Part shown: one piece after another, positions 6,451 through 8,356 of the stretch
Numbering within the stretch: position 1 is the first letter of the stretch
Layout of the letters: the number at the start of each line of letters is the position of its first letter
DNA from: Eledone cirrhosa
Taxonomy: Eukaryota
Assembly (NCBI GenBank): GCA_964016885.1
Contig: OZ024757.1
Location: 23,870,001 to 23,934,000, forward strand
Direction: 5' to 3'
Length of the DNA stretch: 64,000 bases
Notes under the pieces: model-generated
The model's input: the letters and a program-made list of their open reading frames with translations, nothing else
The model's database searches: none
Told to the model about the DNA's origin: nothing
Translations under genes and position numbers: made by a program

Positions 6451-6553
6451 AATCTCTGGAATGGTTAGATTATGCTCTGATTTGTGACGAGGTGAGCCTG
6501 TGGGTGCTGGTGACATACACCGAGGGGGTGTCCTTGATAAACTTCCCATATCT

Positions 6554-6909
6554 ACAGAAAATGAAGATATGGGAAGTTTATCAAGGACACCCCCTCGGTG
6601 TATGTCACCAGCACCCACAGGCTCACCTCGTCACAAATCATTAGAGCATAGTCTAACCATTCCAGAGATTCAAGAAATGTTAGGTCATGCAGTGAACAAC
6701 ATAGTAAAACATTACCATAAACCTGAGAAAGAGTGTGGTAACATTACATATTTACTGTGCGGAGAAAATGGTTTAGTACAATGCATTGAATGTGGCTTCA
6801 AATGTGGCTTCAAATCTGCTTGTCTTTTTCGACACAAATTCTTTGCATGGGATTATTTAGAAAAAGTGAAATGTTGCTTTGAAACATTCCTTGACTGTCC
6901 TGAGAGTTT
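6554..6909 (+). pseudogene. DENND5: Intronless DENND5/Rab6IP1 fragment (start of C-terminal RUN domain), probable retrocopy
   Basis: IQEMLGHAVNNIVKHYHKPEKECGNITYLLCGENGLVQCIECGFKCGFKSACLFRHKFFAWDYLEK resembles vertebrate DENND5A (recalled: [37 protein letters not shown]...GFKSPRLF...WDFLEK). No flanking splice sites; two R->C (TGT) changes fit CpG decay; embedded in a minisatellite. Confidence 0.85.
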
Positions 6910-6935
6910 AGGAATATTTCAAAGCAACATTTCAC

Positions 6936-8356
6936 TGTACATCACCATAAGATCCCTCTATCCCTGTACATTATCCTAATCCCTCTATCTCTGTACATCA
7001 CCATAAGATCCCTCTATCCCTGTACATTATCCTAATCCCTCTATCTCTGTACATCACCATAAAACCCCTCTATCCCTGTACATTATCCTAATCCCTCTAT
7101 CCCTGTACATTATCCTAATCCCTCTATCTCTGTACATCACCATAAGATCCCTCTATCACTGTACATCACCATAAGATCCCTCTATCCCTGTACATTATCC
7201 TAATCCCTCTATCTCTGTACATCACCATAAGATCCCTCTATCCCTGTACATTATCCTAATCCCTCTATCTCTGTACATTATCCTAATCCCTCTATCCCTG
7301 TACATTATCCTAATCCCTCTATCCCTGTACATTATCCTAATCCCTCTATCTCTGTACATCACCATAAGATCCCTCTATCACTGTACATCACCATAAGATC
7401 CCTCTATCCCTGTACATTATCCTAATCCCTCTATCTCTGTACATCACCATAAAACCCCTCTATCCCTGTACATTATCCTAATTCCTCTATCCCTGTACAT
7501 TATCCTAATCCCTCTATCTCTGTACATCACCATAAAACCCCTCTATCCCTGTACATTATCCTAATCCCTCTATCCCTGTACATTATCCTAATCCCTCTAT
7601 CCCTGTACATTATCCTAATCCCTCTATCTCTGTACATCACCATAAAACCCCTCTATCCCTGTACATTATCCTAATCCCTCTATCCCTGTACATTATCCTA
7701 ATTCCTCTATCCCTGTACATTATCCTAATCCCTCTATCTCTGTACATCACCATAAAACCCCTCTATCCCTGTACATTATCCTAATCCCTCTATCCCTGTA
7801 CATTATCCTAATCCCTCTATCTCTGTACATCACCATAAGATCCCTCTATCTCTGTACATCACCATAAGATCCCTCTATCACTGTACATCACCATAAGATC
7901 CCTCTATCTCTGTACATCACCATAAGATCCCTCTATCTCTGTACATCACCATAAGATCCCTCTATCACTGTACATCACCATAAAATCCCTCTATCCCTGT
8001 ACATTATCCTAATCCCTCTATCCCTGTACATCACCATAAAACCCCTCTATCCCTGTACCTTATCCTAACCCCTCCATCTCTGTACATCACCATAAAACCC
8101 CTCTATCCCTGTACCTTATCCTAATCCCTCTATCTTTGTACATCACCATAAAACCCCTCTATCCCTGTACCTTATCCTAATCCCTCTATCCCTGTACATC
8201 ACCATAAAACCCCTCTATCCCTGTACCTTATCCTAATCTCTGTATCCCTGTACATCACCATAAAACCCCTCTATCCCTGTACTTTATCCTAATCCCTCTA
8301 TCTCTGTACATCACCATAAAACCCCTCTATCCCTGTACATTATCCTAATCCCTCTA
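6936..8356. repeat. Mixed 27-bp / 29-bp minisatellite
   Basis: 27-bp unit ctgtacattatcctaatccctctatcy interspersed with 29-bp units. Confidence 0.95.

What the first reader, a model, noticed from the sequence alone, without database searches (positions are those of the whole stretch)
6451..6936. Host gene fragment (DENND5 RUN domain) with fold-back hairpins at BOTH ends, inserted in a minisatellite
Seen: 6451-6553 is the reverse complement of 6565-6670 (about 103 bp, one mismatch, one 3-nt indel, 11-nt loop). 6910-6936 is the reverse complement of 6865-6891 (27 bp, one mismatch). There is no poly(A), TSD or splice site, and both junctions share only a few bases with the satellite unit. Established: LINE twin priming inverts but does not normally duplicate the 5' part, and it leaves a poly(A). 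Inference: a cDNA fragment self-primed at both ends and was captured. Candidate routes are the machinery behind the many fold-back PLE ends in this window, or polymerase-theta-type templated repair of a satellite break.
Basis: partly seen in the sequence, partly recalled or inferred. Interest (0 to 1): 0.78.

Follow-up and report, generated by a model that had tools for sequence, protein, structure and literature searches.

The report
mRNA fragment folded back both ends
A 359-base piece of spliced DENND5 messenger RNA, copied into DNA and carrying an inverted copy of its own sequence at each end, sits inside a minisatellite of an octopus genome; it is likely the fossil of a loose cDNA fragment that DNA repair patched into a chromosome break, and likely has no function.

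Summary
Window 6552-6910 matches five exon pieces of the single DENND5 gene on C6, joined at four exact GT-AG junctions (6 of 359 bases differ), so it came from RNA. The 103-bp left arm also crosses a splice junction. Short-read contigs hold the junctions, and the copy has aged, so an assembly artefact is unlikely. Both hairpin loops read in the sense direction, so the two fold-backs formed on opposite strands; a single self-priming molecule is excluded. All four joints show only 1-2 shared bases (possibly 5 at one). A 5' fold-back is ordinary in this genome: 9 of 30 Penelope-like loci, 1 of 14 visible LINE 5' ends, and a second tailless retro-fragment (EF1-alpha) have one. The 3' fold-back is the oddity: 0 of 29 Penelope-like ends, 0 of 30 LINE ends and 0 of 3 other gene fragments. 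Best reading (0.5): free cDNA with both 3' ends snapped back, captured at a satellite break by end-joining. Target-primed insertion (0.27) is not excluded. Penelope-specific origin is not supported. New variant of a known kind, one case, no sign of function.

The parts
5021..6450 (+). Left minisatellite array, 29-bp unit; 37 of 37 units counted from 5340 are 29-mers
6451..6553 (-). Left inverted arm (103 nt): antisense copy of 6565-6670; crosses the 6650/6651 splice junction; one substitution and one 3-nt deletion relative to core and parent; shares 1 base (A, 6451) with the satellite
6552..6566 (+). Last 15 nt of a DENND5 exon (C6:18269886-18269872, donor gtagaa); holds the 11-nt loop 6554-6564 closed by a 2-bp CT/AG pairing
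6567..6650 (+). Whole DENND5 exon, 84 nt (C6:18269764-18269681), 0 differences
6651..6733 (+). Whole DENND5 exon, 83 nt (C6:18268704-18268622), 0 differences
6734..6860 (+). Whole DENND5 exon, 127 nt (C6:18268321-18268195), 5 differences, 3 of them CpG transitions
6861..6910 (+). First 50 nt of the next DENND5 exon (C6:18267590-18267541), cut in mid-exon, no poly(A); 6892-6909 is the 18-nt loop of the 3' hairpin
6910..6936 (-). Right inverted arm (27 nt): antisense copy of 6865-6891; 1 shared base at the loop, 2 shared bases (CT) with the satellite, or 5 (TCACT) if the broken unit was the ATCAC variant seen in 4 of 50 right-hand units
6937..8356 (+). Right minisatellite array, mixed: 26 27-mers and 24 29-mers among 50 units

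Best explanation
The insert is a spliced DENND5 mRNA fragment with an inverted copy of itself at each end, and it likely arose as a free double-stranded cDNA piece whose two 3' ends each snapped back and were extended before end-joining likely patched it into a break in the minisatellite. Steps: (1) shown: the template was spliced mRNA. (2) Inferred: a resident non-LTR reverse transcriptase copied it (active LINE and Penelope-type families are present), and the copy lost or never had its poly(A) end. (3) Shown by strand geometry: one fold-back formed on the antisense strand's 3' end (2-bp pairing, 11-nt loop, 106 nt copied), the other on the sense strand's 3' end (1-bp terminal pair with a weak imperfect stem, 18-nt loop, 27 nt copied). 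(4) Inferred: the extended ends melted and annealed to the broken satellite ends through 1 and 2(-5) shared bases, as in polymerase-theta-type or NHEJ repair; which enzyme did it cannot be read from sequence. (5) Shown: it has since gathered substitutions like a neutral pseudogene.
For: Four exact splice junctions, single parent locus. Both loops are in sense orientation on the + strand, which needs fold-backs on both strands of a duplex. All four joints have 1-2 nt of shared sequence and no untemplated bases. No LINE-type (GAT)n tail, no Penelope terminal sequence, no (TA)n target, whereas the 30 LINE 3' ends viewed carry a (GAT)n tail, most running into (TA)n-type sequence, and nearly all of the 29 Penelope-like 3' ends run into (TA)n. 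A 3' fold-back is absent from 29 of 29 Penelope-like and 30 of 30 LINE 3' ends. Satellite unit types switch abruptly at the insert (0 of 37 versus 26 of 50 27-mers), as expected if sequence was lost at a break. Precedents (passages read): spliced, tailless mRNA fragments captured at breaks with microhomology in mouse zygotes (PMC4516963); short fold-back inversions at break ends, then captured by end-joining with median 2 bp microhomology, in yeast (PMC11724301); inverted duplications from self-annealed 3' ends and 3'-truncated insertions after L1 activity (10.1101/2024.12.14.628481).
Against: The 4-7 bp register overlap centred on TGTACA looks like a target-site duplication, which favours a nick-based insertion. 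The 5' fold-back is the common 5' junction of retroelements in this genome, so it needs no free intermediate. The unit switch could also be later, separate turnover of the two arrays. No empty allele was found to measure a deletion. A 106-nt arm is longer than most yeast fold-backs (2 to about 150 bp, mostly under 14). It is one event; no second two-ended case turned up among 3 other gene fragments.
Confidence: 0.5

Rival explanations
1. Target-primed reverse transcription at the satellite by a LINE or Penelope-type enzyme acting in trans. The broken mRNA's own 3' end first folded back and was extended 27 nt as DNA; that new end paired with the nicked satellite through CT/TCACT; the enzyme copied arm, loop and RNA, the cDNA snapped back at the 5' end as usual, and a 4-7 bp duplication was left.
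For: Gives the observed loop orientations. Register overlap of 4-7 bp at the palindromic TGTACA. 5' snap-back is a described junction class of R2 target-primed insertion (PMC11371274, passages) and occurs here in 1 of 14 visible LINE 5' ends, 9 of 30 Penelope-like loci and an EF1-alpha retro-fragment. With the insert's allele the RNA's predicted fold has a 4-bp stem in the fold-back register.
Against: Needs an extra, undescribed step (RNA-primed extension that stops after 27 nt). That stem is no stronger than shuffles (z 0.2) and is absent with the parent allele and as DNA. The target is not the (TA)n used by both active families examined. No 3' fold-back in 59 element 3' ends.
Confidence: 0.27
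2. The Penelope-like machinery specifically made the insert, and the end hairpins are its signature.
For: An active family with an 820-aa RT plus C-terminal GIY-YIG-like ORF makes 5' fold-backs often: 9 of 30 loci, about 12 of which have the 5' end in view. Head-to-head palindromes ascribed to self-priming and trans-mobilised host genes are described for PLEs (PMC3846280, passages); a PLE enzyme starts inside its RNA without homology to the target (PMC11167929, main text).
Against: Published PLE-mobilised genes are framed by pLTRs and keep introns; this one is spliced with no pLTR. PLE ends here lie in (TA)n, often with untemplated bases at the turn; 0 of 29 have a 3' fold-back. A LINE copy shows the same 5' fold-back. 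Only one PLE family was examined.
Confidence: 0.1
3. Twin priming: the left satellite end primed on the RNA at position 6670 and copied to near the 5' end, then joined the first cDNA.
For: Would give the same left-hand layout if both cDNAs ran to the RNA's 5' end.
Against: Only 1 base of complementarity at the supposed priming site. In human L1 the overlap between the two cDNAs has a median of 12 bp (PMC12016303, passages), not 106. It does not explain the 3' arm.
Confidence: 0.06
4. Assembly or library chimera (cDNA contamination or fold-back reads).
For: The three supporting runs are one sample, possibly the one assembled; most unitigs have 25-30 rather than 31 letters on the short side of a joint; none spans the whole insert.
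Against: Unitigs with 0 differences hold the left satellite joint (X8, X9), 5' loop (X8, X9, X10), three exon junctions and the 3' loop plus right joint (X8, 45 and 52 letters around the loop joint) at depth 5-7, beside parent-exon unitigs at 7-11. The copy differs from the parent at 6 core sites, the arms carry their own changes, and at 6760 it keeps the base seen in a related species while the parent has changed; fresh cDNA cannot do that.
Confidence: 0.02

Closest known systems
RT-product-mediated break repair (capture of spliced cDNA at double-strand breaks; PMC4516963, passages read)
   Same: Internal, multi-exon mRNA fragment, cut at both ends, no poly(A), 1-5 nt microhomology at the joints.
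   Different: The word 'inverted' does not occur in that paper's main text; here both ends carry inverted self-copies, and the event is a natural, inherited one.
Snap-back 5' junctions of non-LTR target-primed insertion (R2/PRINT, PMC11371274) and inverted 5' copies of Penelope-like elements (PMC3846280, PMC8557442; passages read)
   Same: The cDNA 3' end primes on itself and copies back before joining the upstream target; the left arm is exactly this.
   Different: Described for the 5' end only and for element or designed templates; here the template is host mRNA and the 3' end is folded too.
Tailless retropseudogenes (PMC5322556, passages read)
   Same: 3'-truncated RNA copy without oligo(A).
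   Different: Those are primed by 2-18 nt complementarity between target and the RNA's 3' end and have clear TSDs; here a 27-nt inverted arm separates the RNA end from the target.
Fold-back inversions and templated insertions at resected break ends (yeast, PMC11724301; human L1-induced breaks, 10.1101/2024.12.14.628481; passages read. SD-MMEJ snap-back, PMC5728401 and PMC2943611: search listing only)
   Same: Short inverted duplication from a self-annealed 3' end, then end-joining with about 2 nt microhomology.
   Different: In the passages read, the folded end is the chromosome's own; here both folded ends belong to the captured cDNA.
L1 twin-primed 5' inversions (PMC12016303, passages read)
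   Same: An inverted segment at the 5' side of a retrocopy.
   Different: Those invert a different part with little overlap (median 12 bp) and mostly keep poly(A); here the inverted part duplicates the 5' 106 nt.

Membership tests
Processed pseudogene (retrocopy), broad sense | Exons joined exactly at parental splice sites | tested here: met
   4 of 4 junctions exact, donors gt, acceptors ag; a run X11 contig shows the same spliced form of the parent
Processed pseudogene (retrocopy), broad sense | Separate locus from an intact parent, decaying | tested here: met
   Parent C6, copy C18; 6 of 359 differences, three change residues conserved in P0001
Canonical L1-type processed pseudogene | 3' poly(A) tail | tested here: not met
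   Ends in mid-exon, followed by an inverted arm
Canonical L1-type processed pseudogene | Target-site duplication | tested here: inconclusive
   4-7 bp register overlap in a tandem array; no empty allele
Tailless retropseudogene | Target complementary to the last 2-18 nt of the RNA copy | tested here: not met
   The sense end (6910) does not touch the target; the arm does
PLE-mobilised host sequence | Framed by pLTRs | tested here: not met
   All of 6451-6936 is accounted for by DENND5 sequence
PLE-mobilised host sequence | Introns may be retained; (TA)n target as for the family examined here | tested here: not met
   Spliced; joints lie in a 27/29-bp unit, unlike
PLE-mobilised host sequence | Head-to-head inverted 5' copy | tested here: met
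   Left arm; but also seen in a LINE copy, so not diagnostic
Twin-primed inversion | Inverted part is upstream sequence with little overlap, internal priming by target complementarity | tested here: not met
   Full 106-nt overlap, 1 shared base
cDNA captured at a break (RMDR / end-joining) | Both ends truncated, no tail, short microhomology at both joints | tested here: met
   1 nt left, 2(-5) nt right; such short matches also arise by chance
cDNA captured at a break (RMDR / end-joining) | A pre-existing break, often with loss of target sequence; dependence on end-joining enzymes | not testable with these tools
   No empty allele available; enzyme dependence needs experiment
Hairpin (endo-siRNA) pseudogene | Transcribed and diced into small RNAs | tested here: inconclusive
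   The one transcript-like run (X11) holds only the parent's alleles; no small-RNA data

The most novel reading that the evidence does not exclude
This octopus genome makes mRNA copies by a poly(A)-independent route in which cDNA ends snap back before capture, so that host-gene fragments land as ready-made hairpins (2 of 4 gene fragments found have a 5' fold-back, 0 of 4 a poly(A) tail); the two-ended DENND5 copy is the full form of that class, and such hairpins could feed small RNAs against their parent genes.
Probability: 0.2. Interest if true: 0.7.

Novelty: new variant of a known kind. Interest (0 to 1): 0.42.

Why it matters
How the 5' joint and second strand of retro-insertions are finished, and how loose cDNA gets into breaks, is known mostly from cell culture, yeast and tumours. 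This is an inherited natural record in which strand geometry shows that both 3' ends of a cDNA duplex were treated as foldable break ends. If many such fragments exist in octopus, they would give a genome-scale readout of germline end-joining in a lineage with very active LINE and Penelope-type elements, and a source of hairpin pseudogenes (that such loci can yield small interfering RNA in mouse oocytes is recalled, not checked). As a single case it is a curiosity with no sign of function.

Tried and rejected
Pfam on the insert frame: no RUN hit, two weak unrelated hits. Rfam on the window: the 150 best of 220 matches listed are all below gathering score, nearly all microRNA models on simple repeats and palindromes; no hammerhead among those shown, 70 not shown. 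RNA editing as source of the differences: rejected, the X11 contig carries the genomic parent's bases and no sense A-to-G change exists. Single-molecule models (rolling hairpin, dog-bone, RNA self-priming the whole first strand): rejected, each predicts one loop in antisense orientation. Pre-formed stable hairpins at the ends: not found (z between -1.3 and +1.2). Zygosity from depth: insert-specific 5-7 versus parent-specific 7-11, between the two expectations, no verdict. Other individuals: two RAD runs laid 0 reads, no test. Related species X1 and X6: only intron-flanked parent exons, no spliced joint, no satellite; contigs show presence, not absence. Empty allele in the assembly: the array is locus-specific, other arrays only 67-77% alike. 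Screens for more retro-fragments gave none for actin (57 of 57 candidates scored), HSP90 (29 of 29), L7Ae (13 of 13) or the rest of DENND5 (35 of 39 scored, strict first look); tubulin: 36 of 95 matches viewed; HSP70: strict first look, 30 of 51 matches fetched as loci plus C2:94.87 Mb. Dropped from the count of four fragments as too old to read their ends: intronless actin L076, tubulin L139, mitochondrial EF-Tu L041, decayed HSP70 L210. A 10-bp repeat in the HSP70 fragment first looked like a junction scar but is internal. Apparent 3' inversions at LINE loci L047, L073 are different elements inserted tail to tail, L067 is simple repeat. The first shuffle control counted self-palindromes and was replaced. 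The source of the 7-nt EF1-alpha loop was not found in 10 kb upstream. Pfam, NCBIfam and PDB did not recognise the Penelope-type ORF. Scan notes: nothing for this genome, nothing relevant by words.

Full report
Setting. The window is C18:23870001-23934000 of a 3.0-Gb assembly. The insert's best named protein match is DENND5B of Octopus bimaculoides at 96%, so the host is an octopus. The window is mostly simple repeats, minisatellites and element fragments. Whether it lies in an intron was not determined.

Observation. Both hairpins are present as described: a 103-nt arm against 106 nt of core with one mismatch, one 3-nt gap and an 11-nt loop; a 27-nt arm with one mismatch and an 18-nt loop. 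Neither is chance (self-BLAST E 7.6e-91 and 5e-17; exact arm 20 against at most 10 in 300 shuffles).

Origin. A search of the genome with the core found one other source, four separate pieces on C6; fine alignment added a fifth, the last 15 nt of the exon before. The five pieces are joined at four exact splice junctions. The parent is DENND5/Rab6IP1: an upstream exon matches PDB 3cwz chain B (E 4.9e-7), flanking exons match PLAT (below cut-off) and RUN, and P0001 maps exon by exon to C6 with C18 as the only close extra copy among 35 of 39 candidates scored. The piece covers residues 1125-1239, the linker after PLAT and the start of the second RUN domain. The left arm crosses a splice junction too, so the fold-back was made on spliced sequence.

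Reality and age. Unitigs of three runs of one sample hold, without differences, the left satellite joint, the 5' loop, three exon junctions and the 3' loop with the right joint; most have 25-30 letters on the short side, under the tool's 31-letter rule, and the sample may be the assembled one. The copy differs from the parent at 6 of 359 core bases, three at CpG, and each arm has its own change. A related species (X1) agrees with the parent at 6734, 6795 and 6821 but shows no difference from the insert at 6760, so that change is the parent's. Fresh cDNA or a chimeric read would not look like this. X1 and X6 show only intron-flanked exons, which fits an insertion younger than those splits but does not prove absence. 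The one transcript-like contig (X11) is the parent's mRNA, with the genomic bases.

Strand geometry. On the + strand the order is antisense arm, loop, sense core, loop, antisense arm, and both loops read as sense mRNA. A strand that folds back keeps its own last bases as the loop. The left loop therefore came from the 3' end of the antisense (first) strand, pairing AG on CT; the right loop came from the 3' end of the sense strand, pairing one terminal A on T above a weak stem. Any model with one continuously growing strand (rolling hairpin, closed dog-bone, RNA priming its own first strand) gives one loop in antisense orientation and is excluded. This is inference from the sequence alone. Neither end forms a stable hairpin by folding energy.

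Target. The left array ends in CTGTACA and the right begins with CTGTACA, sharing 1 and 2 bases with the arms (5 on the right if the ATCAC unit variant was cut). The register overlap is 4-7 bp, which a tandem array cannot resolve into duplication or deletion. Unit types change at the insert: 0 of 37 27-mers left, 26 of 50 right. The array is locus-specific and no empty copy was found.

Are fold-backs special here? The window palindrome 59008-59418 is the 5' end of a truncated copy of a young family (1185 candidates, the 40 scored all 100% identical after rounding) whose full copy has an 820-aa ORF preceded by a 3.3-kb inverted copy. Atlas neighbours carry GIY-YIG, RVT_1 and HTH_animal families, mostly on under half of members; Pfam, NCBIfam and PDB gave nothing; 'Penelope-like, Neptune type' rests on these leads and on motifs I recall. 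Of 30 loci, 9 have a tight 5' fold-back (one is the window's own), out of about 12 with the 5' end in view; 0 of 29 readable 3' ends fold back. A young LINE family (RTE by recalled motifs; 727 candidates) has a 5' fold-back in 1 of 14 visible 5' ends (arm 108, loop 24) and none at 30 3' ends. So the 5' fold-back is a general junction type, as described for R2 (PMC11371274) and PLEs (PMC3846280, PMC8557442).

Other gene fragments. Seven gene or family screens besides DENND5 gave three datable copies. EF1-alpha at C4:107680867-107681530 is spliced, 86-93% identical to its parent, cut in mid-CDS without poly(A), with a 22-nt 5' fold-back and 7-nt loop and no 3' arm. Beta-tubulin at C3:52368054-52369476 lacks the parent's intron, is near full length, 90-96% identical, with no arm and no A-tail seen. 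An HSP70 piece at C3:214792420 (552 bp aligned, 95%) is cut at both ends with no arm; its parent has no introns, so RNA origin is unproven. With DENND5: 2 of 4 have a 5' arm, 1 of 4 a 3' arm, 0 of 4 poly(A). The sample is small and the older copies may have lost tails.

Mechanism. Most likely (0.5) a cDNA duplex made by a resident reverse transcriptase became free, each 3' end snapped back on 1-2 bases and was extended, and end-joining placed it in a satellite break. Each part has a precedent: capture of tailless spliced cDNA at breaks (PMC4516963), fold-back then end-joining at break ends (PMC11724301), inverted duplications and 3'-truncated insertions after L1 activity (10.1101/2024.12.14.628481). 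That polymerase theta does snap-back synthesis is from search listings and recall. Against it stands the TSD-like overlap. The main rival (0.27) is target-primed insertion after the RNA's own 3' end had been extended by 27 nt; it fits the geometry and the overlap but needs an undescribed step. A Penelope-specific origin (0.1), twin priming (0.06; PMC12016303) and artefact (0.02) fit worse.

Known kinds and novelty. It is a processed pseudogene fragment in the broad sense, fails the tests for canonical L1 retrocopy, tailless retropseudogene (PMC5322556), PLE-framed gene and twin priming, and meets the testable marks of cDNA captured at a break. I found no description of an mRNA copy with self-copied arms at both ends in ten searches of the open library; subscription papers are missing from it, I read passages of eight papers and the main text of one (PMC11167929), and no supplements, where single cases could be listed. 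Verdict: real, correctly described, a new variant of a known kind, one case, no evidence of function. Interest 0.42.

Noticed in passing
window 59008-59553; L044 (G000:C2:152097000-152106999): 5'-truncated copy with a near-perfect 205-bp fold-back of a very young Penelope-type family; L044 holds an intact 820-aa ORF preceded head to head by a 3.3-kb inverted copy. Most arms (8 of 9) end at one fixed site and run into (TA)n.
   Followed up: yes
window 9245-10160; L058: Young LINE (RTE by recalled motifs) with (GAT)n tail, 40 of 40 scored copies 100% identical over 341 bp; copy L058 has a 108-bp 5' fold-back with (TA)-like letters in the loop.
   Followed up: yes
L108:1296-1959 (G000:C4:107680867-107681530): Spliced EF1-alpha fragment, tailless, with a 22-nt 5' fold-back and 7-nt loop.
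   Followed up: yes
L140:1467-2889 (G000:C3) and L195:1507-2076 (G000:C3): Processed beta-tubulin pseudogene without A-tail or arms; internal HSP70 fragment cut at both ends inside what looks like an old LINE.
   Followed up: partly
L076, L139, L041: Intact intronless actin (381-aa frame), divergent beta-tubulin (434 aa) and mitochondrial EF-Tu (486 aa) genes; possible old retrogenes.
   Followed up: no
window 43848-43921, 44380-44491, 44558-44698, 56567-56684, 62770-63066, 63186-63308: Further short-loop palindromes, most next to (TA)n; 63186-63308 holds a CTGATGA...GAAAC motif that recalls a hammerhead core (recalled; no Rfam hammerhead among the matches shown). A relative of the 44380 palindrome recurs in L033 and L034.
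   Followed up: no
window 6488-6976 (+): The left arm, core, right arm and some satellite form one stop-free frame of 163 codons in the DENND5 reading frame; no evidence of expression.
   Followed up: partly
window 4117-4878: A 31-bp minisatellite that resembles the 29-bp unit lies just upstream, suggesting stepwise unit change along one array.
   Followed up: no
window 27230-27423: 194-bp element with ~46-bp imperfect terminal inverted repeats, followed by (TA)n; MITE-like.
   Followed up: no
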